Source: Lytechinus pictus (taxonomy: Eukaryota). Taken from it: a DNA stretch of 64,000 nt. This document shows positions 1 to 58,608 of this stretch, piece after piece; within the stretch, counting starts at the first letter, position 1, and the number at the start of each line of letters is the position of its first letter. The DNA lies in contig NC_087245.1 of NCBI RefSeq assembly GCF_037042905.1, positions 1,364,001 through 1,428,000 of the forward strand, read 5' to 3'. The notes under the pieces were generated by a model, which worked only from the letters and a program-made list of their open reading frames with translations, was not told where the DNA came from and made no database searches. A program made the translations under genes and the position numbers.

Positions 1-1250
1 AAATAATGTCATTTTTGTTTGTATTTATATATTTTGTAATAAAGATGTCTTCATATTAAGAATGAAACATCCTTGTAGTTTGAAAAGTAATTATAGTCTA
101 TTTTTTCTGTATTCTTTTTTTTCCCCTCTATCCATCTTTTATGACAAGAGATCAATAAAAAAGCAGCCTATTTTATGCATATAGGAGGAGGAATAATCTA
201 ATTAGATTAGAGGTCAATGGTCATGTACTTACAAATATCTTGTTCTCAAAATGAATTAAGAAATACTTCATAGATTACCTCCAAACACTGGTTAATATTT
301 CTATTGTCTATATGCAAAATAATTAAATAAAAACAAATATACATTTCAAAGAGCGTTCTATGAATGACTAGAAAAGAAATGAAAATATTACTGTAGTGAC
401 AATGGTAAAACGGAATGGTGACATTTATATGCATATGTAGGCAAAGATTATCTAATTAAACTTGGGGTCACAAGATTATTGGTCTCAAGTTTGCAATATA
501 CTTCTGATCTGACAACGGTGGGGACATTAATTCTACTGTGTATAGTTTAGATTCCATCTGGACACAACCAAAAGTAATTACCCCCTTTTATATATTGCCA
601 CAATTTCATAACAAAACTGTTTTGATCAAGATAGATTTGACAGGAATGTTTCTAAACTTACTTGCTAATTTCTGTGAGACGTATTTATCCCCAAAGTCAT
701 GCATGAGTAAACCAATTGTCACTTTTCTGATCATTTTAAGCCAAAATGAGAGTAATTGATGAAATTTACCCCTTTATTTTAATGTGAAGTGTGCTCACTT
801 GGCCATGTTACATGTAGTTACAACATATCTTTATAACCTGTACACATTTATTTTACTGATTAATGTATAATTAATTTTGAAAAGATTAATATTTAGACTC
901 GGCTCACAGACTTCTAAAAAAATGTGTAAAAAGTGTGAGGGGGCATCAAAGGTTAGATGAAATAAATCAAAAGTATTTCCAAAACATTGTGACAGAATTC
1001 AGGATCACAAATCCTTGAAAATGGTCTCTGTGACTTTTGAAGTGTCATTTTGGCCTTTTTACTCACTTATGCATGACTTGACAGATCAATCTCATTTCCA
1101 CACAAAAGTTGGTAAATGAGCATTTCTTTAAAAATTATGTTACTAAAACCATTTTTTTTAAGTTGAATCTAAAAATGTTGCCCTAAAAAGGTAGTCTTCC
1201 TTGACCTAGAAATACTAAGGCCTGCTTTATACCTGAGGCAAACCTTTGAC

Positions 1251-1408
1251 CACTAGCGTACTTACGGGGGGGGGGGGGCAGAGGGGCAGTCTGCCCCCCC
1301 CCCCCTGACAAGCCACCACCCATGCACGTATCCCTGCCCCCCTGACGAGCTTGAAAGACCTTTTTGCCCCCCTGACGAAAATCCTGGAAAATCCTAGGTA
1401 CGCCGCTG
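1251..1408. mobile_element. Short hAT-type MITE
   Basis: Imperfect TIRs, perfect 8-bp TSD CCTTTGAC; related to 35474-35755. Confidence 0.85.
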
Positions 1409-3908
1409 CCTTTGACTGACAATGGCTCATGTACATAAATCATGTGCTACAATGCTAAGTGCATCTTACTTGGGGATAAAGAACATTTTGAACTGACAGG
1501 CATATTGTATCAAAATTATGGTGGCAATGGCTTTCCATAATCAAGCTTGGTGTATAGGATCTGTCTCATCTCTTTGTAAGCCTCGGTTCTTTTATTCCAG
1601 CTATAAGGCAAATTGTCATGCCCCCAAAGACATAATTGTCTCATCACCAGAATCATTCTCTTCAGTTACTTTTTATTTGTCACTTTCATGACTATAAACA
1701 AAGATATGAATAATCCAAGTGTCTTTCAATTTACCATTTTTATTGTCAATCCATATTTGATTCTCAATTGCACTCCAATCTTCATCATTAATATCAAACA
1801 TACATAATTGATACAATTACACTGCCAAACCATCATTATGAAAGAACAATTTTTGAACATATTGATGCGTATACCAAAGTGTACATATCACAAATATAAT
1901 CTAAATCAACCCATTACTGATACATTTGAAGTAAAGATTCCAATATTATTTAAAAAGCACAACACCAAAAGTAATACATCAATAGTACATTCATCAATAG
2001 TGGACATTTGAATACATACAATGAAATCAATTATAATGTTCTGATTTATGGAATAATGTCAGTGATTTCAAAAGGATGTTATAGTTTAAAACAATTTTTG
2101 TTTTACTTTAATTTCCTTAGAACAGAGCATGAATTAAGATGAATTAGATTGAATGAAATGCCATTATACTGCAAATGTGCCAGATGCACGTCCTTATGAT
2201 TAAACCATTTCAACATAAAGTGAAAAAAATATATACGTTATTGTGTGTTAAGTTTCTTATACCAATAGTATTGTACGGTTACATATCTCTGGAACATCTT
2301 CATCACGTTTTGTTTGAAATGCTGCCAACTGACAATTTGAAATGATGTGAATTTCATAGTTTCTAGTAATTTTATATATTTTTATCCTTACGAATTCTCA
2401 ACATGTTTTAATGCCTATAAGCAATTTATGTCATTTTCTCTGTGAATAGCTAGGTTCAAGGAACAATTTTTCATCAAGGGAATGTATTTGGTTCCAAGTC
2501 TGTTTGAGATAATGACTTTAATACGGCAAATTTAGTATTGTTAAACTTCTATCATTAGATTGGTTACCAACTTCATGCCTTGATTATAATTACAATTACA
2601 AATGTAGATTAAGTATAATAAGAATAATAACAGTAGGCCTTTCATATTAATCAGGGCCCACCGGGAGAACAGTTTTCAGAACTGAAGTGGCTACCCTGGG
2701 TAAAATATGGCATTATTATTATATTATTATTTGTATTATTATCATAAGTATAACTTGTCATAAACTCCATGGCCAAACACTTTGAAAAAAATTGACTGGT
2801 GTCTTTTTGAATTCCAAACTGAGGGCGCCCCTCCCCCGCCCCCAGAATCGGGGATTTTGACATGAGTACTGAGAAAGCGTGTTTCTAATTTCATTATAGC
2901 TCCATAAATTGTGTCTTGCCGAATATAGGCTATCGAAAAAATATTTTAAAATAAAATGAAACAAAACGGCAAAACCTGACGTGCTGACTTTACATGACGA
3001 CTAAGAAAGTTTTCTCTCTCCTGAAGGGCCTACATCAATACTTACATACATTCAGATTTTGACACAAATCAGTGATTTTTTTTAAAAGTAATGCTCAGCT
3101 GCAAGTGGTTATTACTCAAAAGTTAATTCCTTGGTGCAATGCTTGTACTGACTACAAAACACTCAACAGTTTCACAGTACTGTTATATCATTACATACCT
3201 AAGCACCCTATCATCTGATATCATAAAATATGATTTTTGAACTTTGGAAGTGACTCCATTTAGTATTATATTAAATTAGTAGTATATTTGCTTAGTTTTC
3301 TAAGCAACCTGTAAGAACATTAGAGACTATCCATATGCCCCCTTTTAGTTAACAAACATTCAAAGTACAAGTTGTTAGGACAGTGAATTATCTCTACTTC
3401 AAACTCTCAAAAATTATTACACGAAAGCAATGATTTATTAGCTTTAGCAAATGAAACTGTCCTGCTCTGGACCTTTAATCAAAAGCTCTTAATCTCGTTA
3501 GCAGAGAAAAGTGTTTTTTCCAGTATACATCTTGTTTCAATCATATGAATATGAACATGTACAATAAGATTTTTGATCGAAATTTGTTTTCTCATTCTAG
3601 ATGTGTATTATTTAATCCCAAAACCTTCAACTTTTAATTCAGTTATCACTGGATATGAGCTCAATGTTTTAAAATAATAGTTACGTAACTTACAAAAAAA
3701 AAAACGTTGGGGCCCAGTGAGACTGAATTTATGCTGTGCTGATGTGTCCATTTCGTTGTAATCCATTTCGTGGTTTACATATCGCTAAGTAGTAAGTTCA
3801 TGTTTAAGTTCATTAATTTAACTTAAATTAACTGAAAGTTAGTATCATACACGTATTTGTTATGCATTTTTGAGGCAGTCCATGAATTGATGAAAACAGA
3901 GTAGCAAT

Positions 3909-3911
<3 letters not shown>

Positions 3912-3963
<52 letters not shown>
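3912..3963. repeat. (TA)n microsatellite
   Basis: Seen directly. Confidence 0.95.
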
Positions 3964-3965
<2 letters not shown>

Positions 3966-4008
3966 GAGATGAGGCCAACTCAAAAGATGACACAGGACAC
4001 CATTCTTA

Positions 4009-4046
4009 TATTTAGCTTTCGTCTTTAATAAGACTTCGTCAGAAGC
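4009..4046 (-). ncRNA. Minimal type I hammerhead, stem I weakened
   Basis: Same core and stem II as 4596-4633, but the 3' strand of stem I is AAUA rather than AAGC. Confidence 0.65.
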
Positions 4047-4595
4047 GTCTGAAAAATATAAGGAGATACAACATCCAAGTTTGTCTTGCACATCAATGAA
4101 TTACGGTATAATTAAGTTGAATATATTCCATAATCTCATTAGACAGGTGAATGTATGAATAAGTTAATTAATTAATAACAAATAATTGATTAGATTAAAA
4201 TAATAATTATATAAATGAAGAAGACATACCTGTAATTACAGACTATTGTGGTAGTAAAGTAGGATGCCTACCGTATTCTATCTCGTTCTTAAAAAAAGGT
4301 GTCACAAATTGAAAAAATGAAAACATTGGTCGCTGTTTGTGACACTTTTTTTAAGAACGAGATAGAATACGGTAGGCATCCTACTTTACTACCACAATAG
4401 TCTGTAATTACAGGTATGTCTTCTTCATTTATATAATTATTACTTTAATCGAATTAATTATTTGTTATTAATTAATTAACTTATTCATACATTCACCTGT
4501 CTAATGAGATTATGGAATATATTCAACTTAATTATACCGTAATTCATTGATGTGCAAGACAAACTTGGATGTTGTATCTCCTTATATTTTCAGAC

Positions 4596-4633
4596 GCTTC
4601 TGACGAAGTCTTATTAAAGACGAAAGCTAAAGC
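4596..4633 (+). ncRNA. Minimal type I hammerhead ribozyme
   Basis: GCUU-CUGACGA-A-GUCUU(AUUA)AAGAC-GAAA-GC-UA-AAGC: full core, 5-bp stem II, 4-bp stem I, palindromic AGCU helix III. Confidence 0.8.
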
Positions 4634-5513
4634 TAAGAATGGTGTCCTGCGTCATCTTTTGAGTTGGCCTCATCTCATTATGTTTCATACTCACACCTCA
4701 AGAGCGTTTGGTACAAGTAAACTTGTCATCACATTATATATATATATAATCTTTCATAATACAGCAGCAAATATGCCTACCATTTAAAATTTTATGATAT
4801 GAATAAATGTATCTTCCCGACTGGAAAAGGGATTTGTCTTTCATCTGATATAGACAGATATTGAAGTTCCAATTTGATAAATTTCTCGTACTTTTATAAG
4901 CATTTTTTAAACTAATTTTGCTGTTTAAAAAATTTGAATATGTAACTGTTCCTTGAAGGAATATTAAATGAGAATGAATCCCTGAAACCAGTTGAAATTC
5001 ATATAAAAGAGAAAAATCAAATCAATGAAAGGTTGAGGAAGACAAAATGAATAATAAGAAAGTTATGAACATTTGAACATTAATTACGATTACTAATGCT
5101 ATGTAGATCCTCCCATTGGCAATTTCCAAAGCTCATAACATTCTTATTATTAATTCAATCTTCCTTTAAACTTTCAATAATATTTCTTTCATATTCTTTT
5201 TCACATGAAACCATCTAATTTCAAATGTTTTATTCTCCTTTAAAAAATGGGGCCTTGTAAGGTTTATTTTATTATTTCAAAAAAATCATGTTGTATTTTA
5301 TCATAAAATCAGATTCTGAAATTTCACCAGATTACAGCATGCAGTTAGAATTAGTGAATTTGAAAAAGTTAGAAAAGGTGAGTTTGTTTTGCTTCCATTT
5401 CAGGATAAGTCATTTCAGATTTTTTTTTCTTTGTAAAGTGAGATAGAAAGATGCCGCCCTTTAGATTGCTAGTTTGTTATGTCAGAATACCAATTATGAA
5501 TAGCAATAACGAA

Positions 5514-8700: not shown

Positions 8701-11700
8701 CCTTCGATGCTTCGCCCCCTCCCCTTAACATTATGTCGTCAACTTAAAATAATTCGTTCGTTTATTATATTTTGTTTGGGGGACTCTAATTCTGTAAATC
8801 ATAAACAAAAGGCAAGGATCTCCGTAGTGCATGGTATATGGAACATGACAAAGAATTAGTCTGGATACTTAGCGGCATGTTTTCACCTACTCTATGATAT
8901 TGATAGGGACGCGACACTGCCTCTAATTTCGCCTCCCACTTGTCGACTGCGGCCTTCTTGACTGCCAATCAGTGTCTGTGCCAGCAAGACTATGGTTATT
9001 CCTAGTGGCGTGCCTATACGCGCCATTAATAGTATAGTTATGGAATCTTTACTGTATTCGAAATACAGTATTCGCCGACCGTACAACGCAAACATCGCCA
9101 ACATCCAGCAAAGTCACCATGATAGTCGAGCACGAATGAACATAGCTAGCCTGTCTGCCTGCACCGATCGTCAACAAAAGAGCACTCGTCAAATTAAATC
9201 TACGAATAGAACAAAATCACCAACTGTCAGAATTAAATGCGTGTATGACTTCACGTATATCCTTTCGTTGGAAAGAAAGTAGAAAAGCAAGCTTGGATGC
9301 CAGTGAGTGATGGTGGTGGTGGTGGGGGAGGGGGGTGATTGATATTGAGCTCAAATTTCCAAATTATAGCAATATCCCCAAATCAAGGGGTATTTCAAGG
9401 GGGGTACTAGAGCGGGCGATGCGAGCGAGTAAATTTTCATTCATTGGTTGAAAGACCAAATTGTGTACAATAACTTCTTTCAATATAGGAGAATATGAGG
9501 AATTAGATTCTCATATTACGAGAGAACGTGGTGAGCGAGCATAAAAGGTTACTCTCCGTCGCAGAATAACATGTGCATAAATTTCAGAGAAAATTAAGGG
9601 GCCATAACGAAATGACATTATAAAAAGAATATGAATGTATTACACTAAACTATTAAATGATAGAATAGTCGATGAGACTGAGAATTTCCACTTGCCAAAT
9701 TTCAGCATATTAACAACATTTAAAGATAAATTTACACGCCTTAAATAATTTTTATGATACAAGCAATATTATTTCTTTATCGACTCAATGTGCGGGATTT
9801 TTGTACAAGTCACCCCCCCCCCCCATCCGAAAAGTGAATACTTACGAGGTTGCATAATGTGACTAACTTGATCCAGTATCTTGTCAAGTGCCTCGTTATC
9901 TTCGTCGTCTTCCTACAGATAGAATGGGAGAAAAAAATATGATTTATTGCATCGTCGATGTTTCCAATAATCAACCATAAACTTTAGAATTACCGTTTTT
10001 AAATTGTTATAATAATTAATGACAATGTCAAGTTTAGGGTATATGAACTATTATTGCAATATCAATTAGTTGTTGTCGATAATTCAACAATAAAATAATA
10101 AGGTTTGCATTATGACGCTCATATCTGCCATATATAATCAATTCCTCTTTGTCACAAAGTGAAGAAAAAAGACCGGAAAGAAGAAAAGTGGGAAAATGCC
10201 GGATGATGACGTGTGAGCCCCTACTTTGACATCCCCTCCCTTTTAATGTTAAAATTTTAAAGGTAAAGTCCACCCCAGAAAGTAAAGATAAAGAAAATCA
10301 AGCACAACACTGAAGATTTCATGAAGATCGGATGTAAAATAAGGAAGTTATGACATTTAAAGTTTCGCTTATTTTTCACAAGCACAACAGAGTGATATGT
10401 GAATGAGAGAGACAATGATGTCCCTCACTCACTAATTCTTTTGTTTTGTATCGTTTGAATGTTTCATTTTTTTACTTTTGTGACAACAACTTATCAATAA
10501 GGACCAACTTGACTGAACCATTAGATGTTACATATATATATATATGTATTATATATATATATATAATATTTTATGATGGTTTCTTGTCAATTCGAGGGTG
10601 CTGATTCCACATCTGAATGATGCCACTTTCAACCTTGGGCATTTTTCACCAATTGGCAAAATCCAATATGGCCAACAAAATATGCATTTTACCTATGGAA
10701 ACCACAAATCTGCACATAAATTGACTATAAAATGCATGTAATTATGACCCAGGAGTGAAAAAATGTCTGAAAACACAATTTTTAACAAAATAATTATTTT
10801 CTTGATATTCAAAATCATGGCTGCCACGGACCACTGCCATACTCCGATTATAAGCAGAACATAATTTTCACAAGAGTGAGAACTAAAATTTTAACGCATG
10901 TAATCTTGATCTACGAGCTACTATATGAAAACAATCATTGCCATCAACGAAATATAAATTATCATTACCTATATCATGTATGTAAAAAATGTTGTATTTT
11001 GATATTCCAAACGTCCCTATAATTATACTATGAACAATATGAATGGGAAATAATTTTGACAGAATTTGGCTTTGCTTTACTACAAAATGCCTATGATGTA
11101 AGAATGAAATATATGGCAACATGTTTTCTAACGAGATACATTATTTATTTTGCCATATAGGCGATGAATGCTGTATTTTGAAATCCAAAATAGCCGTCGT
11201 ATACCCTAACAGTATACAATGCGAATGGGGAAACTATACTTTTTCGATTAAGAACCGTATGTTTTACCCTTTCATATTGTGCATAAAGGAGTGTACAGGG
11301 TCTGTAGTGGCTTTATTGATAATGAGAACTGAAAAAAGAAATCATGTTTTCAGACACTATTACACTCCTGCTTCACAATTACAGACATTAATTTTTGATA
11401 GTCAAATTTTTGTGATTTCCATATGTAATTTTCATATTTTGGCGGCCATATTGGATTTTGCTCATTTGCGGGAAATGCTCAAGGTCACGAGAGTGGTATA
11501 TCATTCATATTTGGAATTAACACCCCCAATTGACAAGAAACCATAAAAACATGTTTATCGAAAAACAAGATTTGGTCCATTATATATGAGACCCAGGATT
11601 ATTTTAATTCAAAGTGAAATGTTGCATGTCGCTGGTTTCTCGTTTTCCCATGTTTAAGGCTAAACGCAGTCAAGTGTAAATCGAATGTGCAATATGGTTA

Positions 11701-14700: not shown

Positions 14701-17700
14701 CACGTTGTCATGCAGATATAGCTTGGAAGACACATTCTATACACAGTCAATCATTATGTTTGGTGGAAAGTTTTTCACTTATGCACAGTTTTGCTGCAAT
14801 TGATTTTCCTTTGATTTTTATTATTTAAGCTTTACTTTTCCTATTAACATTTTCGGACGGACTGAAAATATTCATCTCAAGTTCGTTGAATTCCATGAAT
14901 TCCGTGTTTTCCTGATATCCGTAATTTTTGTTGTTTTTCCGTTTTCTGAATCGCATAAAACTGTTAACTCTACTTTTAAATAATAGCAACTTATGTGACG
15001 TAGCTAATTTGTAAAAATATGCTTGCGCAGAATAGCTAATCTCTGTCTTGCGCACGTGCATCCCATCATGGTACTCATGCATGGTATGTAATTGGGCCAA
15101 TCAATATCCTGACAGAAGTTGCGTGGCAGGTCTTATATCTAGACTCACGTGCATGGCCGTTGTTTTCTACAGTCGCGTCCATGGTAACATCTTCATACGA
15201 CTCTAGATTGAATGAGGCATATTCAATATCTCGAGTCCACTTTGTGACGATGTTGATAGGTGATTGAGATGAGCCATCGCAGGAGGATCCCGGAATGTCT
15301 TTCCAAAAAGATTGATCTGGATAAAAGAGATTAATTATCATCATCATCATTATCATCATCATATCATCGTCGTCGTCGTCATCATCATCACCACCACAAC
15401 CACCATCACAGTCATCATCATCATTACCACCCACATGACCACCACCATCACACCACTGTCATCATCATCATCATCATTATCATCATCATCATCTTCATTA
15501 TCATCATCATCATTATCATCATCATCATCATCATCATCTTCTTCTTCATTATCTTCTTCTTCCTCTTCTTCTTCTTCTTAACGTGGAGGGAAGTGTCTCG
15601 TGTGAGCTCGTAAGATTTTTCGTTTTATTGGGCCTTTTCTGGTCCTATTGTTGTTATGAGTAGTATTTAGTGTTTTCTAAGGCAAAGCTTTATTTGGTCC
15701 ACCATTGTTGGGTTGTATTTTTCTGTAAAATTGTGTAATTTTCAAGTGTTTTTTTTCTTGTTGTGAGTGAAGTGGCCATGGCGGCTGATGCTGGGCGGGA
15801 GCCCCGGGACCTTCCCGGGACTTCAGCCCAACAACCCTCGGGTTTTCTACCTACCCGAGTCAGTCGAAAGAATGGTATATGTTTTGTTTCGACTCCAACT
15901 ATTTCAATTCATGATTATGTAAAGGAATTTGCTAACGCATGTGTACCAGCTGACTGTATTGTCTCGGCATCTCGCATCAGCCAACAGAGAATTGCAATTT
16001 ATTTAAATTCTCGTACGGCAGTGCTGGATGCCGTAGACAAAGGCTTTACTTTTCAGAACTCGTTTATTGAATTGTCACCACTTACTTTGCCCACTACTCG
16101 TTTGACTCTCTCGAATGTATACCCTGAAATACCCAACGATTTGTTAGTGAAACAGATTGCAGCCTTTTGTAAGGTCGTGTCACAAATTCGTTCCATTCCA
16201 TTAGGTTTCAAAGATAAACCATTTTCCCATATCTTGTCCTTTCGGCGACAGGTTCAGGTCCTTATTAATCCTAATGTTACCCCACCCGCCCATCTCGATT
16301 TCTCACTTGAGGGTGTGAATTATCGCGTCTTCGTTTCAACTGACGAAATTCGATGTTTTGAATGTGGGGAAATGGGTCACCTTAGCCGGACCTGTAAAAA
16401 GACAGACCGTCAAGGTCTTACCGAGAGAGTATCGGATAGGGGCAAGGTAGGTCCAAAACATCAACCAAAGGGATTTAAATCTCATATCACGAATAATGTG
16501 CCTCTTAATGTAGAGCCCGTTCATGGGCAGAAACAGAACATCCTCCCAGAAAGGCCCTCAAATCACGCCAATTCTGTCGGTTCTGAGGGGTCCTCTGAGA
16601 TAAACGAGTCGAATACCCCCAAATCGCCAAAGTCCTCAGAACCACTGTTACCTTTTCCTCCACCACCCACTAGACTTTTTTCTGATATTGTTGCTAAAAG
16701 GAAAAGAACTCCTTCAAAATCTTCTCCTGACACCCCGATTCTTACTCCCCTCACTTCGAAAACTCCACCAAGGAAAATGAGGAAATCACCCCCCTCTACA
16801 CCTATTTCAACAGGCCCCCCTCCTTCACCTGTCCTCCTGTCCTCTCCTGCCCCATCGTCACCTAACACCTGGTCCTCTTCAGCTCCGCCCCCACCCGGCA
16901 TCCAATCCTCTTCAGTTCCACCCTTCCCCGCCTTTCAGCCCTCTTCAGTCACTCCCTCCCCCGTTATCCAGTTCTCTTCAGCTCCTTCCTCCCCAAACCC
17001 TTCCACCCCTTCCTCGTTGTGGGATGACACCCTGTCTGACGACGATTCGGTCGATTGGGCGTCATCTTTTCCGTCAAGTCAGGGCCCTTTGTCTGACAAA
17101 GATTTGTTGAAGTTTCTAAAGACAGTCAAAGCAAGAAAAAAACCAATTGAAATTGCCCGGAAATTCACCTCGAATGTACCCGGCCTTGTTAGGCAATTGA
17201 TTCCTTTACGGAATAGTTCAGCCTTCAAGAAAAGTACCCAGCAGCGGGTACAAAAATTAATCAGAAAGTTAGAAGACTGTGCTTAGTTCTTTTTTTTACA
17301 TGCTTGGTAAGACCCTGTATGCTCTCCACCTTGCAATGACCTTGTCATTCCTCACGCTGAACACTGGAGGATGTTCTGGATCAGTGAAAACTGCCTCTAT
17401 TCATTCTTACATTGAAAATATTGCAATTAGTCCTGATGTTATTTTTCTGCAAGAAACTTATGATTTAACGCCACGTTCTTCTTGTTGGAATTTATGGAAA
17501 TCATATTTGATAAATTGTTCTTCCGGTATCTCTCGAGGTTCCGGCATAACCACCATTGTAAAGAAGAATCTTGTTGGCTCGTTTGATAGCTTAGCTATAG
17601 TTGACAGTCATATACTATATTCGAAAATTTGCATTGATGATACATTTTATCACTTGTATAATATTTTGATACCACAAGATGATAATTTTGCTTTAAAAGC

Positions 17701-20700
17701 CATTAAATCACTTCATGATCACTTGTGCACGATAAATAATGGCGTTATTATGTTAGGGGGAGATTTTAATTGTACCCTTAACCCCGCTCTTGATCGCCTG
17801 AGCATGCCAAAAGAACATAGACATAAAATCTCTACACAACTTGGGAAAACGATTGATTTTTTCACCCTTTGTGATGCATGGCGCAGACTCAATCCTTCTC
17901 AAAAAGCTTTTACCTGGCATAGGCGAAACCCACGAAGCATTCATGGCGTCTCGCGTGCAAGACTAGATCGCTTTTATCTGCCTGTTGGTCTCACCCCTTC
18001 TATTCACAAATGCGGCATTTTACCATGCTCTCTCTCTGACCACGATGCGGGTTATTTAGAATTAAAACCTCCCAAACACAAACATAGGGGAAGTGCATAC
18101 TGGCATTTCAACAACTCTTTACTTGATGACGAGAATTTCAAAAATATTATTGTACATTTTTGGACCGATTGGAGGCTTCACAAAAATGAATTTGTGAACA
18201 TTTTGATGTGGTGGGATGCTGGCAAATCCCATATTAAAAGAATTACTCAAATGTATGGAAAAAAGATAGCTGATGAAAAACGGGCTGCCTTTGTGAAAAT
18301 TAATAACACTATTGAGCAGCTCCAATCCAATTTTGTTTTGTCAAGTAATACAGAACAAGAGATAATCAGAAACAGAAAGGAACTTAATAATTTGTTAAAA
18401 TATGATGCCAAGGGTGCTTTGATTAGGTCACGCTTTAAACTAGTCCAAGAGGTTGATACGAGCTCGTCCTTCTTTTATAACTTAGAGAAGTCGAACTCTT
18501 CACGGAAAAGAATTTCTCAGATCCGCCTCCCCTCAGGACGCACCACAGTAAATGAAAATGAAATTAAGAACCATGTGTACTCTTTTTACAAGGACCTTTA
18601 TAGTTTTTCTCCCATTGATGGTATTTCTGCTGAACTTTTTTCCAACATTAAACGCTTGGATAAGGATGAACAGAAAAATCTCGATTCGCCCTTTTCAGTA
18701 GAAGAATTAACACAAACTGTCAAACAATTAGGAAAAGATAAAACACCGGGTATGGATGGCCTCACTACGGAGTTTTATCAAACTTTTTGGCCCACGTTTA
18801 AGAATGATTTCTTTGAAGTCTTACAATTTTCTATTTCAAATGGCAGTTTACCACGTTCTTTTCGTAGGGCAATCATTAGCTTGATCCCCAAAAAGGGAGA
18901 TCTTGCTGAGATTACCAACTGGCGTCCTGTCTCACTTCTTAACGTGGACTATAAAATATTTGCAAAAACCCTTGCCAGTAGATTGAAACTCTGTATTGGG
19001 AGCATTATTCATGAGGATCAAACTTATTGTGTCCCAGGTCGTACCATTTATGATAACATCATTTTAATAAGGGACATTATTCATTATGCAAATTCTGCCG
19101 ATATCCCTCTTGCCTTGGTGAATCTTGATCAAAAGAAAGCGTTTGATAATATATCTCATAAATATCTTTTTGATACAATGAAGGCAATGGGATTCGGATA
19201 CTCGTTTATCTCGAGTGTTAAGTTGTTGTATTGTCATGCAGAAAGCTTTGTTAAAGTATGTGGTTCATTAACCGCACCCTTCCATTTCCAAAAAGGGATT
19301 CGGCAAGGATGCCCTCTTTCGGGCATGCTATACTCAATAGCAATTGAACCCTTTCTCAACTTACTTAGACAAAATCTGGCCCAGTGTAATTTTAAAATAC
19401 CCGATATTAATTTGAATTTATCTGTATCGGCCTACGCTGATGATGTTACAATATTTTTATCTTCTGAAAATGGTTTTGATATTATTCAGAATGTTTATAA
19501 TACGTACAGTAAGTCTTCTAATGCTTGTTTAAATTACAATAAGTCAAAGGGCCTTTGGGCTGGATCGTGGTGTCGACGAAATGATAAACCACTTGTTTGT
19601 CAATGGAGTAACGAAGGATTAACTTTTCTTGGAGTTCAATTAGGTAACACCAATACTTATTATCAACAAAACTGGGTGATTTGTAAGGATAGACTAAATA
19701 AAACACTTTCTCGGTGGACCCCTCTTTCTAATTATTTATCATTTAAAGGCAAGATTCTCGTAGCTAACCAACTAGCTGCCACAAAAGTGTTTCATTTTCT
19801 GGCTACACTATCGGTCCCCAATCACACACTCAATGAACTCCAGGACATGTTGGTCAATTTTGTTTGGTCTAATAAACGTCATCTCATTAAGAAACAAATA
19901 TTGTCTTGTGAACCCAACAATGGTGGACTTGGTTTAGCTTCTCTCCAAGCACGAGTCCACACTTTCCGTTTCTGTTTTTTTCAACGCTTTCTTAATTTTT
20001 GCTCTCACCCTGCTTACCTACTCTGCTCTCTCAATCTTAAAAAATACAGGGGTCTAAACTTTGATTCCCAATTGTGTTTTATTGATTTAGACCCAAAATT
20101 TCTCACCAATCTGCAATGTTTTTACTCAGAATTATTAGTTGCTTGGAGGGCCTCAGGAGCTCACATTGACATTACTTCCCTCTCAGTTAATCATGTCTTA
20201 AACATGCCGCTCAATTATTTTCCTTTAATTCCCCCATCGCTAGAAGGCAGCACGGTCTTCCCTGCACGGCTCTTCGTGTGTCGAATCACGCTCATTAAGC
20301 ACATCATTGACCCCTTCAACGGCAAGTGGCGCACAGTTGACAGCCTTCAACTCCATCCAGCCTACGATGCAAGTCGTCAACGCCTTTCTCGACGTTTGAT
20401 TGGACAAGAACTTTCCATCCTGAAATATCGCCTATCTGCCATCTTCCCTACTATTTTTACTTTAGCTGGACTCAAAGCCCCTCTTCGTCCACTTTGCAGC
20501 TCACCCACCCCTTTAGTGATTAAACTGGTGAGAGGGACAGCTACAGCTGAACTATCTACAAAATATATTTATCGTGCATTGAAACGCCGAGTAAACAGTT
20601 ACGATTCATCACTTCCTTCACACTGGCATGAAAATGGAACTCTCTCAAGTAACACGAAAATTAACTGGACACAAATATATGCCCCACCTACAATTAAAAA

Positions 20701-23700
20701 AGACGGGGACATACAGTACAAGCTTCTCCACAATGTCCTACCATCTCTACCAGTACTTCATCATTTCAACAAAGACATTCCAATTCAGTGTGGATGGTGT
20801 GGTGAGACGGGAACCATCTTCCATCTCTTAATACAATGTCCGGCCATCCAACCATCACTCATCGTTCTACATCATCTAATTAAGCGTCTCATTCCGAACA
20901 TTATTATCGACTTTGAATTATACTGGGCGCTGGTTCCGCATGCTTCGGGCCGTTGCAGGGAAGCCGTGCGTTTATGTAATTTTTTGTTTATTAGTTTCAA
21001 AAGTACCATTTATTGGCTGTATCGTTCTTTGAATTTTTCAGTTCCCCTATTGGTTTGGAAATCCAAAGTGAAAAGCAGGATTCTTCTAGATTATGAGTTT
21101 CATAAGTTACAAAATAATGTCAATGCCTTCTCAAAGCGATGGTGTGTGAACAATGCTCTTTGTTCTGTCGGCACCTCTTTTGAATTAGTTTGGTCTTTTT
21201 GAATATAGGAATGTAAGCCTACCTTTACTTTACTGGTTGTGTAATGTTTTTTTTCTTGGTTTGTTTATATGAGTCCTTATTTGTACTTATAAAGTATATT
21301 ATTCTCATATTTTATTTGTATATATGTTATAGTTTGATTGTAAATAAAGTTTCATTTTGAAAAGTCAAAAAAAAGTCTTCTTCTTCTTCTCCTTCTTCTT
21401 CACCTTTACCATCGTCATGAGATTATAGAAATATCCACTACCTTCATCGCCTTAATGTTCACAATGATGATGGTGATGATTATTATTCAAACCCTTATTC
21501 ATTTTGAGGCCGTCATTACATACATCAAGCAACCCTCTCAGTGTGATGATCTGACCTGTTTTTTGTTTTATTTCCATATTATTTGTCTTGTATTTGAAAG
21601 AATGTGTTAACGTATTCATTAATTTTCTGATATATGTATGTCATGTTTTAAAACGCAGAAATTAATTAATCTAACGAACAAACAAACTTTCATATAGATA
21701 GAAAATAATTAGAAAGTAGACTGCATGACATAATAGAAGGTTATGGTCAAAATAAGAAACATTGTCAATATAAAAGGAGGAAAAATAATCATAATGAAAT
21801 TGTTTATTCACGACGCTGAAGTCGATGTCAACAATTCGACACACAAGTAAGAGGCCTGTGGCAAAGAAACCAAAGAACTCAACCAAACTAATTGTTAAAT
21901 TGAAAATATTTCATTTCTTCTTAAATTTTGTTTACCATAATTTTGTAGCTGGTGTACTTACCGGTATCACCAGCTCCTGCATAAGTCCAAGTGGAACTTG
22001 CTGAAAGATAAAGGGAAATTGATAATAAGACAATTAATTTCATTTACTTGTTCCAACTTAACCCCTCTTTCTCTTTTCCTTATACCCTGCCCCCTTTCTC
22101 CATTTTCTCTCTCGTTTCCTTCCCCTCTCCCCCCCCCCCTCTCTCTCTCTCTCTCTCAAGTCTCTTTTCTTTTCCTTTCTTTCTTTCTTACTCCAACGCA
22201 CCTGTAAAGTATGCAGCAGCAAAACATGAATTCCATATTTTCACCAAATTCAAGAATTCAGTTTATTGATTTTTTTTCTCTACAGGTGTTGATTCTCTGG
22301 AACTGGAAGGTGTGTGTGATGTGTTGTGAAATGACAGCCCCCAATTTCCCCTATCTTCAATTTGTTCATTTCGTTTATTTCCATTTCACACAATTACCAA
22401 AGTCATTTTCTGTCGTACATCATGGCTTAAAAGTAAAAAATATATACATTGAAAATGTTGAACATAGACAAGATAACAGGTTCGTAATAGATTATCATAG
22501 ATTACATGTATTTTTTTAAACCACTAAGTTGACAGTTAACATAGTAACTAACATAACTACCTTTTCTGAGAGTTTACGGGATGTCAATCCAGCATGACAA
22601 TTTTGTTTATTCAGCTTATACCACCACCCATTAAAAGGCTGCGAGACATTCATGACATTATCGGCCACTCATGATCCTTCGAATCGGATCTAACTGAAGT
22701 GCTCAATATCAGAGGCAGTGATCATACAAGGGGTATGGCCAGTGGCGTAGCTACGGGGGGCCTGGGGGGGGGGGGGCACGTGCCCCCCTGAGATTTGGTG
22801 TGCCCCCCCCCCCCCGGTGCCCCCCTGAAAAAATTGGCAGAGCAAAAAAAAAGGGAGAAAGAAGAAAAGAAAAAGAAGGGGAAAGACAGAAGAAAAAAAG
22901 AAGAGGAAAATAAGAGGAGGAAGACGAGTGAATAAAATAATGTGAGGGGAAGACTTGCAAAAAAACCCAAATCTTTCATGTTACTATATAACATTTTTGC
23001 TCGCGCTTCGCGCTCGGATTGCCTGTTCGATGAGATTCATATATTGCTCAATAGGGTGATATGGAGTCGCCATGTATGTTGCTGCATATATGTTCTTTAT
23101 TCAGAATGTGTTTGAATTATCCAGTATGAGATCAGAACTTTTATCAATAATTTTCTGCTCGCGCTTCACGCTCGCATTATAAATGATACCCAATTAACCA
23201 CATCCTATTCATGATTTACAAAATATCAATAGAGTGTCCCGTTTTTATAAGAGTCAATCTAAGAAGTGACCGATCGGGGAAATATATAGGTGTAGATAAT
23301 TTCGGCTCCCCCCCCCCCTTATTGGCGAAAGTCGGATTGGCCCTTGTGACACGCACAGAAAAAAAAATGTTGCCCCCCCCCCCTGAAAAAGCAAGGACCC
23401 CCCAGTGCCCCCCCCCCCCCAGGAAAAAAGTCCTTGCTACGCCACTGGGTATGGCGCAATTTTATGATTTTCTATGAGTAAAATATAGAGGGGGAGCAAA
23501 GGATAAAAAAGATAGGTCTCTATAGACAGAACCTAATTTTAATGATTGTATTATTATATGGTGAGTGTGATGGTGTACGCGTATGTGTGTGCGTTATATG
23601 TCGTGTTTTCTTTACATGTTGTTTATCTATGATGACGATGATGATGATGAGTGATGATGATAAGTGATGATGATAAGTGATGATGCATGATGATGATGAT

Positions 23701-26700
23701 GATGATGGTGGTGGTGATGATGATGATGATGATGAGTGAAGATGATAAATGACGATGCATGATGATGATGATGGTGGTGATGATGCATGATGATGATGAT
23801 GGTGGTGATGATGCATGATGATGATGATGGTGGTGATGATGATGATGGTGGTGATGATGATGATGATGATGAGTGAAGATGATAAATGACGATGCATGAT
23901 GATGATGATGGTGGTGATGATGATGATGATGATGAGTGAAGATGATAAATGACGATGCATGATGATGATGATGGTGGTGATGATGCATGATGATGATGAT
24001 GGTGGTGATGATGCATGATGATGATGATGGTGGTGATGATGATGATGGTGGTGATGATGATGATGATGATGAGTGAAGATGATAAATGATGATGATGATG
24101 ATGATGATGATGATGGTGGTGATGATGATGATGATGATGAGTGAAGATGATAAATGACGATGCATGATGATGATGATGGTGGTGATGATGCATGATGATG
24201 ATGGTGGTGATGATGCATGATGATGATGATAATGATGATGATGATGATGGTGGTGATGATGATGATGATGAGTGAAGATGATAAGTGATGATGATGATGG
24301 TGGTGATGATGCATGATGATGATGATAATGATAATGATGATGATGATGATAAAGAAGAAGATGATGATGATGATGATGATGATGATAATGATAATGATGA
24401 TGATAAAGAAGAAGAAGAAGAAGATGATGATGATGATGATGATGATAATGATGATGTTTATGGCGATGATGATGGTGTTGGTGGTGTTATTGGTTGGTGG
24501 TGTTATTATATAGGGATTTTTCATTAATGGCATGTGACAAGTTAAGGTTTATAGTTTATACAAGAGAAGAGATGTTTCGGAGGGATATAGGGAATATGTT
24601 CCAAAGACGGGGGCAAGATATAGAACGGATGGAGGGTTGATCTCTGTTGCTGAAATAGTGAAGAAATGTAAGAAGGAAGTGTGGTTGACAGAGATTTATA
24701 AGTTTGAACAAGACGGCATTCGATAATGAAGTTCATTTAGTATAGGGGTAGCATTATGACACCATTTTTGGTTTTGACATATTAAGCGTGATCATTTATT
24801 CATAAGGTGTTGAAGTCTTCCTGTATAGATATTCTGTATATTTCCAACTTATCATTTGATTACAATTCGTAATTATTTGTATAAACTTAACTTTTTTTTG
24901 TATTATCACCTGTTAATAATTATGATTATTATGTTTTATGTATTATTCATGTACATGTATACTAAGATTGGGTGCCTTTTACTTTGTACATTTTATTCAT
25001 GGCACGGCCCCAATACAAATCAGACTCTGTATCTGTTTGGGTTTTTTACCGTGTGAAAATAAAATTTATCTATCTATCTATCTTGTTTACTAATATCCCC
25101 AAGCAAGCACCCACCGTAGTCAAGCATGGAGGGCACACGTGCTGTCCTAACAATTAAAGTTATGACATGTGTCCTTATCTAAGAAACTCCTGATGCGATT
25201 GAGATTGTAGATTTGCCCGTTGAGCGGAGTACGACACAAGTTTGTTACATGTTCGGTCATTTTCATGGTAGAAGATATGGAAATATTTATGTCATTAATA
25301 TAGGTTCATGGAACGGATTGAGGTGTGCAGGAGATGCAGTAACAGTTAAAGAACTCTGTTTTGCTACAACTTTACTTACGAATTGTAGACACAGGTCTAT
25401 ATAACTACCTAAACTTGTGTAATAAAAGAACTATCTGTAAAACACCAGTAGACATTGACAGATTCAGGATACGTGAAAGTACTGGGAGTAAAACAGACAA
25501 TTGCTTCTTAATCGGCCAAGAAAGCATTGGAATGCAAGATTTAGAAGAAAAGATTGAAAAGCATACGTTGTAAGACAGGGGCGGCGGAACCGAGGGCAGG
25601 GGGCACTTGCCCCACCCCCCCCCCCCTTCCTCGTAGGAAAAAAATTCCTTTTTTCAAAATGGAAAGTGCCTTTTTTTTTATAGTAAAACATAATACATTT
25701 TAGGTTAGAATATCACAAAATTTCTGGCTCGCGCTTCGGGCTCGCATGATGATGATGGTGGTGGTGGTGGTGGTGAGTTAGAGTGGTGGTGATGATGATA
25801 ATGATGATGGTTGCTAGTAGTGGTGGTGATCATGATTTTGTTTCTTCAAGTTCATACGCATTGAAGGGTTGGTATTTAGCTTGAACATCCCACCCACATC
25901 TTATACTTTCACCCTTTTCGTGGGAATATTGTGTTCTGGTGAGACACCTACACGTATCAAAACTCGATGAAAACATCTGCTCTCTATATTAAACATTTTA
26001 CATCTCTATTCTTTCAGGATTTGAATCCAATTTAGTTTTTGAAAGGTCATGTCAATATGTTCACCCATCGATTCAACCTGTGAGAGAAATCGTGCTTGTC
26101 TGTTTTCTATTCTTCAATTTTTGAATATTTGGCAACTGTTGATAAATGCAGACTTTCACGTGAATTTAGTGTTAGTATGTTGAATGTTCTATGCGTGAAG
26201 CGATGTTGTATGTCCATGAAAAAAATTAATAATCGCTTGCTAGTTAGCCCTGCTTGATGTTCTCTTCACTTCATTATGAATAAATATCAATTTATATAAC
26301 TACTTTTATAATTATGATTAGGCTATATCAAATATAGGAAGCACATGTAGGTTTACTGCAGATACTGCATTTTGGCGATACGGAAAACAATGATTTCTCG
26401 ATTTTTTTTTTCGTCATAAAACTTAAAGGGATGGTCCGGGCTGAAAATATTTATACCTTAATACATAGAGTAGAATTCACTGAGCAAAATGCCGAAAATT
26501 TCATCAAAATCGGATAACAAATAATAAAGTTATTGAAGTTTAAAGTTTAGCAATATTTTGTAAAAACAGTCATCATGAATATTCATTAGGTGGGCTGATG
26601 ATGTCACATCTCCACTTTCTGTTTTCTTATGTTATTGCATAAAATCATATTTTTTTCATTATTTCATATTTGTGTGAATAATATGTCTCCCTTATAATGA

Positions 26701-29700
26701 AATAAGTTGCAGCAATAAATATCTAATGCACTAAATCAGTTGTCAATCCAATTTTTCTAGTTCTTGGAGGAAAAAAATTGAATAAACCTAATTTCATATA
26801 ATAAAATACAAAAGAACAAGTGGAGATGTGACATCATCAGCCCACCTAATGAATATTCATGATGACTGTTTTCAAAAAGTATTGCTAAACTTTAAAATTC
26901 AATAACTTTGTTATTTGTTATCCGATTTTGATGATATTTTCGGCATTTTGCTCAGTGAATTCTACTCTATTTATTAGGCTATTCATACTTCCAGCCCGGA
27001 CCATCCCTTTAATGTTCCAAATGACAAAGAGTTTGATATAGATAATGTTAGCGATATGGTGTAGAACTTAATTGATTACACTCCCCTACTACACTCCCCT
27101 ACCTCAATGTGATGATCAATATTTCTTTTGTCATTACAGACAGTACTTGATTGAATAGGTAGGCACAAAGTTGAGATCATTCAGATAAAATCCAGACATC
27201 GATATCTGTCGTCACGTGACGCGATCGAGATCAACGAGGTATAGGCCTATACCACTGATTGTTGAAACGGCGACAGGTTGTTCATAGTTTTGATGTTAAA
27301 CGCGCTAGTATAATCTCACACTCTACAACACTCCACATAATACCAGAATGATGATACAGTCATACTTCTTGAAAGCCCCCCCCCCCCCCCCTTACGGAAA
27401 ATGAAATATCTCACAAATTTGACAATAACAATTACAAGAAAATATATATATTCACACTTTTTGCTGTAGATAATCTAAGCGTGTACTATGTAGGCCTATT
27501 GGTGAAGAGTATAATGCATTTTGAGTTTGCAAATAATTGCATGGAAATAATTATGATCATTATAATTATATTTAAAAAATGGTTTCACATAGAAGTAATG
27601 CCGAAAATTTGTTTACAAATTATAATTTATTTTATTAAATCGCTGTCCGGAAAGCAGTAAATAACAGGTTCGAATCCCACTGGTTCCAATTTTTTCTGAC
27701 TTATGATTTTCATTACAAATCGAGCATGCGATCTTCAACACATAGGAGTTATGCCGAAAATTTGTTTACAAATTACAGTAGTTTCATACAGCAATATGAG
27801 TTTTCAAATATAAAATAGGAAATCTGAAAGAAAAATGAAATAATCGGTGGTTGTCGCAGTGCCGTAGAAGAAGGCCTATACTCCAAAGCATTTTAAGATC
27901 ATTCGAAAATAATATTAAGCATCTCGTGGGTATTTGTAAGAATTGCATGCACGAAAAATCCTTAGAAAACTTTGGGAAGCTTAAACTGTGTCAGGGACAA
28001 TAATCATTTGATAAGGATCCGTGTCACCACTCTAGAGTAATACTGGCGACAGGGACATCATGTACAAAGACCTAATTTGTCCTAATGTCATTCTTTCAAA
28101 TCCACAACTAGATTCACTTTGAGATGATCTTCTATCGTGTCATTTACATACCCTCATTCTTCTCATTAACGCGATATCACTTATCACCATCTTTGATATG
28201 ATGTAATTATAGTCTTCTTAATTTATTTGTTAGTGACAAATGAACAATAAACTTTTCTTCACTAGTTCTTTTCCAGACTTCATGGAAAAAGTTCGAGCCT
28301 TACGTCTTCGTGATGACATTAAAGGTTGTTCCCTGATGTAAATACTCATAACTGATTGAAGCACGTCTGTAAATTACACAATTACGCATTTAGCATTCGA
28401 ATACTTTTTATACCTTTTTTCTTTCTTTGCTCTGTCATCATTTTGTTCCCTTTTAAAGTTAAAAATCTTAATAAAACATTTTTTTCGATTAATTATTTTG
28501 AACTAAAACAATCCTGAGGGAAAAAGATTAATTTGTGTATTGTATTTACGTTGTAACTCAAAATATTAGAATACAGTACATCTACATGCCAATAAAACAT
28601 CGTTTGCAAAAATAGGAATATATTGGCATTCGATCATGAGTCTCTGTCAACGAAGATTTATTTTGCTTTATCCCCATCCAAAGGAAATTGATGAGTTCCA
28701 AACAAGACATTACACCACCACACCCCCCCCAAAAAAAAAAAATTACATCAATATAAAACATATTATACCCACATACAATCATCAATATTATATTGTATGC
28801 TCGATGTTGTGATGTAAGTAGCCCGCTAATAGGCTTTCAACTAAATGCATTCGTTGTCTATTCAAGGACAAAGTTAATACCAAGTTGAGTGATATTATTA
28901 TTCGGGTAAGAAATAAGTGGGTAGAGATACACGGGGTAGGTGCGTATGAGGGCCGAGGTACAAACGGTGCCCTATTTATGATTTTCTGCAACTGAGCGAG
29001 GAGAGCGAGCCAAAAATTATACAAATTTATTTTGTTGGAATTGTGTGGGTTTTTTTCTCGCTTGCTCGTATTAATTCTCTTATTTTGTTCAAATCAGTCA
29101 TATTTCGGGGAGGGGGCGTTGTATAATAACGATTAATTGCCATTTGAGGAAATTGAGTATCTGAATATAAAAACGGCCCAAGTCCAATTTTGGGCGAAAT
29201 TGAGTTAAATATGGGAAAATGTTCCTTATACAATGACTTATCTTGTGTATAAATGATAAATCTGAAATCATCTCAGAAATGCCCTAAATAAAGGAGGAAA
29301 CTTTAGTATGAGTGTAAGAAAAGCCCAAGTCTAGGACTTGGGCTTTTCTTATATTCATACCATAGCGCCCTCTCTCATTACTTGTACTACTTACTACACA
29401 CAACTGGGCGTTGTGGCGTGCGCCTGTAATCCAAGCTGTGGGGAAGTTACAAATTGATGCAGAGGTTCGAGCCCTGGTCACGTCTCTCGGACGGTGACGT
29501 TAAAGGTCGGTCCCAGACGTAAATAATCATATCTGATTGATACACGTCTGACAAAACTCAAATACACACACACACACACACACACACTGTAAAAAATTTC
29601 CGAATCAGTATTTGACACTTAATGTATTTAAATAAGTAAAATTTACAATTTGTAATTATTTTTCGTTTTTTTAAGTAGTTTTAACTTGTCTTTTAATTCA

Positions 29701-57218: not shown

Positions 57219-58608
57219 AAAACGAAACCGAGATTAAGCGATGATTTATCATAACTTAATCACACATATAATAGACAAATGACCTACCAATGTAAAGCTT
57301 AGAATCTCCCCTTTCATCTGATATTACTTAGAGTATTCCTCATTCACGCATGAGTGAGCAAAAACAATTTGAACAAAGGATACCAAAAAGTCATTTGGCG
57401 GGGGGTATCTGAATTTCAAAAAGAAAATCACATGCCTAAAAAGTTCAATATCTGCTCTTTTATTTGATACCTTAATCACAAAAAATGGTCAAGAAGTAAA
57501 AAAGTTATGTTACCTCGGAACAATGCTTGTATTTCCATAATTTCATTAAATAAACGTGTTTTCACCGGTTTTCCACAGAAGCTATCGCATGGTTAACAAA
57601 AGACTTAAAGGGATGGTCCGGGCTGAAAGTATGTATAGCTTAATAAATAGAGTAAAATTAACTGAGCAAAATGCCGAAAATTTCATCAAAATTGGATAAC
57701 AAATAACAAAGTTATTGAATTTTAAAGTTTAGCAATATTTTGTTAAAACAGTCGTCATGAATATTCATTAGGTGGGCTGATGATGTCACATCTCCACTTG
57801 TTCTTTTGTATTTTATTATATGAAAATAGGTTTATTCAAATTTCTTCCTCCAAGAACTAGAAAAATTGGATTGTCAACTGATTTAGTGCATTAGATATTT
57901 ATTGCTGCAACTTATTTCATTATAAGGGAGACATATTATTGACACAAGTATGAAATAATGAAAAAAATATGACTTTATGTAATAACATAAGAAAACGGAA
58001 AGTGGAGATGTGACATCATCAGCCCGCCTAATGAATATTCATGACGACTGTTTTCACAAAATATTGCTAAACTTTAAACTCCAATAACTTTATTATTTGT
58101 TATCCGATTTTGATGAAATTTTCGGCATTTTGCTCAGTGAATTCTACTCTATGTATTAAAATATAAATATCTTCAGCCCGGACCATCCCTTTAATGCATG
58201 GCTGATCGTCAACAAAACGGAGTGTCAAGTGAGTTTGAACACTTGCCTGTAGAACCTCTTCATTTTATGAAATTATTGAAATTCAAGCCTTATTTCAAAT
58301 AACCAGAACTTTGTTATTTCTCGACCATTTTCTGTAATTGAGGTATCAAATTAAAGAGCAGATATTGAACTTTTTGACAATGTGGTTTTCTTTTTGAAAC
58401 CCAGATACAGCCCGCCAAATGACTTTTTGGTATCCCTTCTTCAAATTGTTTTTGCTCACTCATGCGTGAATGAGAAATAATCTAAGTAATTTCAGATGAA
58501 AGGGGAGATTCTAAGCTTTACAATGGTAGGTAATTTGTCTATTGTATTTGTGATTAAGTTATGATAAATCATCGCTTAATCTCGTTTTCGTTTTTCTGGG
58601 ACGCACTG
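57219..58608. mobile_element. Tc1/mariner-like palindromic MITE hosting the 57609 insertion
   Basis: About 300-bp inverted arms; right end CTGGGACGCACTG followed by TA; left tip missing. Confidence 0.75.
57609..58190. mobile_element. Second 582-bp copy of the same MITE, opposite orientation
   Basis: Same TIRs and TTAA TSD; interior is the reverse complement of 26427-27008. Confidence 0.9.

What the first reader, a model, noticed from the sequence alone, without database searches (positions are those of the whole stretch)
3962..4680. Palindromic element with two outward-facing hammerhead ribozymes
Seen: about 346-bp arms around a 27-nt loop; each arm carries a complete minimal hammerhead core near its outer end (4596-4633 plus, 4046-4009 minus), so a transcript in either direction contains one ribozyme. 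No ORF. Known: minimal type I hammerheads with a palindromic helix III occur in Penelope-like element pLTRs, which often form inverted arrangements. Inference: what looks like a DNA MITE is a non-autonomous, ribozyme-bearing retroelement, either a one-off inverted insertion or a family that moves as a palindrome.
Basis: partly seen in the sequence, partly recalled or inferred. Interest (0 to 1): 0.8.

Follow-up and report, generated by a model that had tools for sequence, protein, structure and literature searches.

The report
Head-to-head Penelope retroelement stump with hammerheads
The 720-base DNA palindrome and its two small hammerhead motifs are real, and they are most likely an ordinary dead-end insertion of a Penelope-like jumping gene: two cut-short copies of its end joined head to head in a TA repeat, an arrangement already described for this class.

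Summary
Public runs show a multicopy family whose copies end at 4681 or carry the tail. Only 2 of 167 contigs cover the centre, and two other head-to-head junctions have different breakpoints. So the mirror half is likely made anew at each insertion, and the family does not move as a fixed palindrome. A read-through RNA is predicted to bury the ribozyme in a long duplex. No parent RT/GIY-YIG gene could be reached and cleavage was not tested. Opposite-strand minimal hammerhead pairs 100-700 bp apart are already published. Two loose ends remain: a possible intron-less genomic copy, and arms that look too alike for the apparent age of the locus.

The parts
3912..3963 (.). left (TA)n target tract; the element's end merges into it, so the boundary is uncertain by a few bases (3961-3966)
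3961..4335 (-). inverted, 5'-truncated copy of the element's 3' end without tail; arm 3961-4308 plus, likely, the 27-nt centre
   Evidence: (X2 record 9 covers 4240-4334 and then goes on unlike the window)
4009..4046 (-). minimal type I hammerhead motif, core intact, helix I only 2 bp; predicted cut after 4013
4049..4229 (-). mirror copy of the intron (181 nt)
4309..4335 (.). 27-nt unpaired centre: the head-to-head junction, where one copy is 27 nt longer than the other
4336..4681 (+). direct, 5'-truncated copy (pseudo-LTR-like end); 4681 is a common 3' end of the family
   Evidence: loose ends behind 4681 (X1 7 contigs, X2 2 contigs, X24 8 reads)
4414..4593 (+). 180-nt GT-AG spliceosomal intron (24% GC) ending two bases before helix I; removed in RNA of related copies
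   Evidence: joints and loose ends in X2, X21, X24
4596..4633 (+). minimal type I hammerhead motif with 4-bp helix I, 5-bp helix II and palindromic AGCU; predicted cut after 4629
4682..4733 (+). 52-nt tail on one end only (up to 56 nt, as its end merges with the TA tract); family sequence, not host flank
   Evidence: depth 856 in X1 and 302 in X2 at 4700-4722, against about 68 and 8 on the flank
4735..4748 (.). right (TA)n target tract

Best explanation
This is most likely a single dead-end insertion of a Penelope-like retrotransposon (PLE): two 5'-truncated copies of the element's 3' end sit head to head inside a (TA)n tract, each with an intron and a minimal hammerhead motif, and one has an extra tail. 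Shown: the anatomy; a multicopy family with copies ending at 4681 or bearing the tail and running into (AT)n; splicing of the intron in related copies; other head-to-head junctions at other breakpoints. Inferred from published PLE work: the element's RT/GIY-YIG protein, encoded by a longer copy elsewhere, nicked the AT repeat on both strands and copied an unspliced element RNA from two internal start points about 52-56 nt apart (both read CATTAT into the AT tract). One copy therefore has the tail and the other does not. The two short products were then joined at their truncated 5' ends, giving the palindrome. The hammerheads are passengers of the terminal repeat. At this locus they are predicted to be inert: the left has lost helix I, the right is a lone minimal motif with no same-strand partner, and read-through RNA would fold into one long duplex.
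For: Hammerhead fits the four published min-HHR traits. Intron ends at helix I as reported for D. virilis Penelope. Spliced joints: 2 of 18 X2 contigs, 4 of 25 X21 reads, 7 of 62 X24 reads; X21 has no depth at 4424-4584. One-sided tail and inverted 5'-truncated partner are the published PLE insertion form. (TA)n target. X1 depth climbs from 124 at the centre to 1,000-4,700 along the arm, then falls after 4681 to about 68 on the flank; 2 of 167 contigs cover the centre. Two other inverted junctions: 4337/4616 in one X1 contig, and one at 4353 in 9 X21 reads, 18 X24 reads and 1 X2 contig. Fold of the whole insert: about -570 kcal/mol, 36 of 38 ribozyme bases paired to the other arm.
Against: No RT or GIY-YIG sequence was linked to the family: no genome is held, and three peptide searches gave nothing usable. 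The tail is 52-56 nt, longer than the published 30-40 nt, though one related copy ends it at 4719, i.e. 38 nt. No target duplication can be read apart from the TA tract. Rfam gave no match. The arms are more alike than the apparent age of the locus predicts. All laid RNA reads are under 99% alike, so expression of this locus itself is not shown.
Confidence: 0.85

Rival explanations
1. A non-autonomous family that moves as a ready-made palindrome, copied through RNA or DNA with a fixed centre.
For: One X1 contig spans both arms and the centre at 4271-4380 with 8 differences and 7 gap letters; if it is not the same locus, it is a second copy of the same junction. Hairpins are under-represented in short-read contigs (established knowledge).
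Against: An X1 contig also joins arm end, tail and the same right flank (record 8, 4669-4895), so the same locus in that organism explains the spanning contig. The second centre-covering X1 contig stops before 4335, and X2 record 9 goes on unlike the window after 4334. Other junctions lie at other breakpoints. X21 shows no antisense reads at 4355-4676.
Confidence: 0.06
2. The repeat unit is a stand-alone non-coding PLE derivative (retrozyme- or SINE-like, about 400 nt, with intron and hammerhead) that borrows a PLE protein; this locus is one inverted insertion of it. The insertion chemistry is as in the best explanation, but the family has no coding body of its own.
For: No coding body was seen; only 2 of 167 X1 contigs reach upstream of 4332. 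Peptide searches were blank. Animal retrozymes are reported as non-autonomous pLTR derivatives.
Against: No head-to-tail tandem joint is listed among the 10 joints shown. Heavy 5' truncation of an ordinary PLE gives the same picture. At least one X2 contig continues upstream of the centre into other sequence. This rival overlaps the best explanation and differs only in the parent.
Confidence: 0.2
3. A DNA foldback element or MITE with TA target duplication that captured a hammerhead-bearing fragment.
For: Long terminal inverted repeats next to TA. The window holds several long foldback-like inverted repeats with 88-93% complementary arms.
Against: A spliced intron, a one-sided family tail, variable centres and depth rising towards a shared 3' end are not MITE traits. 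The whole arm, not an internal passenger, is the intron-hammerhead module.
Confidence: 0.03

Closest known systems
Minimal hammerheads (min-HHR) in pseudo-LTRs of metazoan PLEs (Cervera and De la Pena 2014, PMC4209133; parts 1-2 of 4 read)
   Same: Extra base between positions 9 and 10.1, G10.1-C11.1 pair, palindromic 15.2-16.2, short 4-bp helix I. That paper already reports dual min-HHRs about 100-700 bp apart on opposite strands (here 550 bp), and an intron end at the 5' side of helix I in D. virilis Penelope.
   Different: New sequence family; helix II is 5 bp against 7-8 bp in Schistosoma; intron 180 nt against 75 nt in Penelope (PMC8557442); cleavage untested here.
Insertion architecture of endonuclease-bearing PLEs: inverted 5'-truncated copy, optional one-sided tail, microsatellite targets (Arkhipova et al. 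2013, PMC3846280, passages; Craig et al. 2021, PMC8557442, passages, section 11, supplement parts 1-2 of 59)
   Same: Head-to-head inverted copies, tail on one end, retained intron, (TA)n target. The supplement lists Penelope-13_HM with an attached inverted copy and the hammerhead on both strands.
   Different: Both copies are cut so short that no ORF is left and the arms are nearly equal, so the insert mimics a MITE; the tail is 52-56 nt; the clade (Neptune, Poseidon, Nematis) is undetermined.
Poseidon element PAc of Anolis (Frangieh et al. 2024, PMC11167929; parts 1-2 of 4 read)
   Same: Two internal reverse-transcription starts that define the tail, AT-rich nicking on both strands, and a hammerhead not needed for insertion in vitro fit the anatomy here.
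   Different: There the ORF starts at helix II; here no ORF start could be confirmed. The mechanism is transferred by analogy, not tested.
Animal non-LTR retrozymes (Li, Clavereau and Pollet 2026, 10.64898/2026.07.22.740005; part 1 of 5 and passages read)
   Same: Non-coding unit of a few hundred bases with a type I hammerhead, related to PLE pseudo-LTRs.
   Different: Retrozymes are head-to-tail tandems with two or more same-strand hammerheads; this is head to head with one per strand ('head-to-head' and 'palindrom' occur 0 times in that text).

Membership tests
Metazoan PLE minimal hammerhead | CUGANGA and GAAA cores, extra base after A9, G10.1-C11.1, palindromic 15.2-16.2, NUH cut site | tested here: met
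   against the traits read; both arms
Metazoan PLE minimal hammerhead | helix I of 4-5 bp | tested here: met
   right arm 4 bp; left arm only 2 bp, so met for one of two
Metazoan PLE minimal hammerhead | self-cleavage (as dimer or with protein) | not testable with these tools
   table 6 lists no pile-up and reads cross 4629, but those copies have changed cores and depth is low; the active dimer is predicted less stable than the best fold (-12.3 vs -17.4 kcal/mol)
Metazoan PLE minimal hammerhead | conservation and covariation across copies | tested here: inconclusive
   frequent X1 changes fall in loop II (4614) and outside helix I (4634, 4637), none listed in the cores, but 48 rows are hidden and no both-sided change was seen
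Endonuclease-bearing Penelope-like elements | single ORF with telomerase-like RT and GIY-YIG endonuclease in the family | tested here: inconclusive
   no ORF here; no genome; blank or chance; the two RT ORFs in the window have no nucleotide match to the arm
Endonuclease-bearing Penelope-like elements | retained spliceosomal intron in the pseudo-LTR next to the hammerhead | tested here: met
Endonuclease-bearing Penelope-like elements | inverted 5'-truncated copy joined head to head, with breakpoints varying between insertions | tested here: met
   junctions at 4335/4336, 4337/4616 and 4353
Endonuclease-bearing Penelope-like elements | optional 30-40-nt tail at one end | tested here: met
   one-sided and multicopy; 52-56 nt here, 38 nt in a related copy
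Endonuclease-bearing Penelope-like elements | AT-rich or microsatellite target | tested here: met
   (AT)n behind 4681 in 7 X1 and 2 X2 contigs
Endonuclease-bearing Penelope-like elements | target-site duplication | tested here: inconclusive
   hidden by (TA)n on both sides; no empty site available
Hydra clade of PLEs | canonical hammerhead with a 3-4-bp helix III and loop | tested here: not met
   supplement table; two family motifs had 0 occurrences in that supplement (line breaks can hide matches)
Non-LTR retrozymes | head-to-tail tandem units with two or more same-strand hammerheads | tested here: not met
   no such joint among the 10 listed
MITE / DNA foldback transposon | copies share both termini and a fixed overall structure | tested here: not met
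   centre on 2 of 167 contigs, variable junctions, one-sided tail
MITE / DNA foldback transposon | termini shared with a transposase-coding element | not testable with these tools
   no genome held

The most novel reading that the evidence does not exclude
This family is a natural strand reporter for Penelope retrotransposition. Beside intron-keeping copies like this one, a genomic copy has lost the intron exactly, which would mean that spliced, sense-strand RNA can be the template, against the published proposal that PLEs keep introns because they copy an antisense RNA. The evidence is one contig of a run guessed to be DNA (exact exon join, 21 letters on the short side, single-copy depth 63) and a second contig that breaks at the same donor; a DNA deletion between the two CAG ends would give the same join.
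Probability: 0.3. Interest if true: 0.5.

Novelty: new member of a known kind. Interest (0 to 1): 0.2.

Why it matters
As found, it matters little: it is a clean textbook case of a PLE stump, useful mainly as a warning that very short head-to-head PLE insertions in (TA)n pass for MITEs in repeat annotation. It would matter more if a side lead held. Exact intron-less genomic copies would bear on which RNA strand PLEs copy, a question left open in PMC3846280. Arms kept near-identical after an old insertion would be a small-scale case of arm-to-arm conversion.

Tried and rejected
Whole-genome search: no genome held. Rfam, whole window, gathering: 0 matches. BLAST of the element against the window: no second copy, only AT-rich noise. 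Metagenome pattern scan: 1 locus (L001), a 33-nt match inside a long reading frame of what looks like a bacterial contig, judged chance. Candidate C-terminal peptide across centre and arm, plus frame: 1 hit at E 8e-4, a repeat-inflated unrelated protein; minus frame: best Atlas score 0.88, unnamed clusters. Candidate N-terminal peptide through hammerhead and tail: 0 of 11 candidates at E<=10. None of these blanks shows that a parent is absent. Run search: no RNA holder listed on record, best share of words 0.18; 4 of 24 listed runs were laid. Earlier findings by sequence, by place 'near' and by the full word set: nothing. Bacterial promoter/terminator scan: not meaningful for this DNA. A frame in the RNA loose ends before 4353 that looked like an endonuclease end (motif recalled, from no call) was dropped: the differences between the two organisms are CpG-type changes and the stretch is the mirror of the downstream arm. 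An alternative monomer fold for the right motif (3-bp helix III, cut at 4635) leaves only 2 bp of helix I. Literature searches for a palindromic non-autonomous Penelope family (6 papers listed) and for intron-less Penelope copies (12 of 27 listed) showed no such paper by title or abstract start; most subscription papers are not in the library. Supplements of the other papers were not looked at and may list this family.

Full report
Observation. The palindrome is real: arms 3961-4308 and 4336-4681 with a 27-nt centre, differing by 6 substitutions and 2 one-base indels. Each arm has an intact minimal hammerhead core, and these are the only 2 cores a descriptor found in 64 kb. In 200 shuffles the loosest descriptor gave 26 hits, the left-arm pattern 1 and the right-arm pattern 0. 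The two cores are copies, so this is one observation. The left has only 2 bp, since 4009-4010 differ. Rfam gave no match. No ORF of 120 aa overlaps the element, and there is no other copy in the window.

The insert lies between two (TA)n tracts (3912-3963 and 4735-4748). Between the right arm and the right tract are 52 extra bases. Both 3' ends, at 4681 and at the end of this extension, read CATTAT into AT repeat. Each arm also holds a GT-AG intron: 4414-4593 on plus (180 nt, 24% GC against 34% and 41% on either side) and 4229-4049 on minus. It ends two bases before helix I.

The family. No genome is held, so I laid 4 of 24 listed public runs on 4240-4900 at 82% likeness. They come from two coded organisms. 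All tables were cut to the best-supported rows, and the tool warns that summed depth is no copy number. Run X1 (guessed DNA; 756 million letters of contigs) gave 167 contigs: 32 at 99% or more, 37 at 95-99, 51 at 90-95 and 47 under 90. Depth is about 68 on the right flank, 1,000-4,700 along 4378-4699 and 124-125 over 4286-4331. Seven X1 contigs, 2 X2 contigs and 8 X24 reads leave the sequence behind 4681; the X1 and X2 ones run into (AT)n and varied flanks. So 4681 is a shared 3' end. The 52-nt extension is family sequence too (depth 856 in X1 and 302 in X2 at 4700-4722, against about 68 and 8 on the flank), and 6 X21 reads end it at 4719. It is therefore an optional tail.

The intron is spliced in related copies. 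One X2 contig skips exactly 180 nt with GT..AG ends and a second joins 4413 to the second exon (2 of 18 contigs). Four of 25 X21 reads (2 starts) and 7 of 62 X24 reads (6 starts) show the joint, and 9 and 15 reads run from the donor into a diverged second exon. X21 has no depth at 4424-4584; X24 has 1-11, so unspliced RNA or DNA is also there. All X21 reads at 4355-4676 have the first mate on minus, which with the spliced reads points to RNA in the hammerhead-sense direction. None of the 87 raw reads is 99% alike, so this shows family expression, not expression of this locus. No pile-up of ends was listed and reads cross 4629 (8 in X21, 23 in X24). Those copies have changed cores, so this says nothing on cleavage.

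Is the palindrome the unit that moves? The evidence says no. Only 2 of 167 X1 contigs cover the centre. One spans both arms (4271-4380) and is best read as the same locus, because another X1 contig joins arm end, tail and the same right flank (4669-4895). The other stops before 4335, and X2 record 9 follows left arm and centre to 4334 and then goes on for 20 unmatched letters. So the centre is likely family sequence belonging to the minus copy, which is simply 27 nt longer. One further X2 contig joins the centre in plus orientation to 4388, which I cannot fit. Two other head-to-head junctions exist. One X1 contig joins 4337 to 4616 on opposite strands; depth shows it does not cover 4290-4335, so its arms are unequal. 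In 9 X21 reads, 18 X24 reads and 1 X2 contig a short mirror piece is joined at 4353, possibly one locus shared by both organisms. Against this reading, short-read contigs break at hairpins and centres under 82% alike would be missed.

How it likely arose. The published PLE insertion form is a 5'-truncated copy with an inverted truncated partner and a 30-40-nt tail at one end, often in microsatellites (PMC8557442; PMC3846280; PMC8969392). In vitro, a Poseidon protein nicks AT-rich DNA on both strands and starts reverse transcription at two internal sites that define the tail; its hammerhead is not needed for insertion and cuts only with protein (PMC11167929). I infer the same here: two cDNAs primed from the AT tract at the two start points, made from unspliced RNA, both stopping early and joined at their 5' ends. 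Self-priming on an antisense template (PMC3846280) is the published alternative for the inverted half and is not excluded. The RT/GIY-YIG parent was not found, so membership rests on architecture, and a non-coding derivative that borrows a PLE protein remains possible.

Do the ribozymes work here? Probably not. A transcript across the insert in either direction folds at about -570 kcal/mol with 36 of 38 ribozyme bases paired to the other arm; the same holds after splicing (-315). The active two-molecule fold is predicted at -12.3 against -17.4 kcal/mol for the best fold (right motif) and -1.9 against -13.6 (left). A single min-HHR showed no detectable cleavage in PMC4209133.

Novelty. PMC4209133 already states that dual min-HHRs occur about 100-700 bp apart on opposite strands and that the Penelope intron ends at helix I. 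The supplement of PMC8557442 lists Penelope-13_HM with the hammerhead on both strands. This is a new sequence family of a known kind. It is not a Hydra-clade hammerhead, not a tandem retrozyme and not a MITE. Earlier AI notes call this genome a sea urchin and report the same head-to-head pairs for other families; I did not check them. My own evidence shows only AT-rich eukaryotic DNA with LINE-type RT genes.

Loose ends. First, one X1 contig joins 4413 directly to the first bases of the second exon (21 letters on the short side, depth 63, with a further deletion in the hammerhead), and a second breaks at the same donor. If X1 is DNA this is an intron-less genomic copy, notable because PLEs are known for keeping introns. 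The intron is bounded by CAG on both sides, so a DNA deletion could mimic it. Second, the apparently shared locus in X1 differs from the window by about 7% (15 of 216 and 8 of 103 letters), which predicts about 24 differences between the arms if the insertion is older than that split; 6 are seen (P about 1e-5; at 4% divergence P is 0.014). Arm-to-arm conversion, or a wrong assignment of those contigs, could explain it.

Verdict. A real, tidy, already described kind of PLE stump. Interest 0.2.

Noticed in passing
run X1 contig laid on window 4413>4616 (tables 5 and 5c); a second contig 4413>4696: Exact loss of the 180-nt intron in a contig of a run guessed to be DNA: a possible intron-less genomic copy, or a deletion between the two CAG ends.
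   Followed up: partly
window 3961-4681 against X1 records 1 (4271-4380) and 8 (4669-4895): The arms differ by 6 of 346 bases while the apparently same locus in another organism is about 7% away; possible arm-to-arm conversion.
   Followed up: partly
window 4336-4353: Three different head-to-head junctions each have at least one arm ending within 4336-4353; this may be a preferred stop or the 5' end of the copied RNA.
   Followed up: no
window 10568-11555: About 1-kb element with long imperfect terminal inverted repeats (75-82%) starting right beside another (TA)n tract; looks like a DNA foldback element; no hammerhead found.
   Followed up: no
window 57218-58595, 35872-38613, 26423-27012, 51711-52196, 60822-61370: Several long foldback-like inverted repeats with 72-93% complementary arms and no hammerhead by my descriptor.
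   Followed up: no
window 15739-21202 (+): Apparently intact two-ORF non-LTR retrotransposon: 515-aa frame with zinc knuckle and 1309-aa frame with endonuclease and RT.
   Followed up: partly
window 45440-47404 (+): 654-aa open frame with an RT domain, LINE-like; no nucleotide match to the palindrome.
   Followed up: partly
window 23520-24548: Three overlapping long open frames on the minus strand with strong G skew and no Pfam match for the longest; likely a simple tandem repeat.
   Followed up: no
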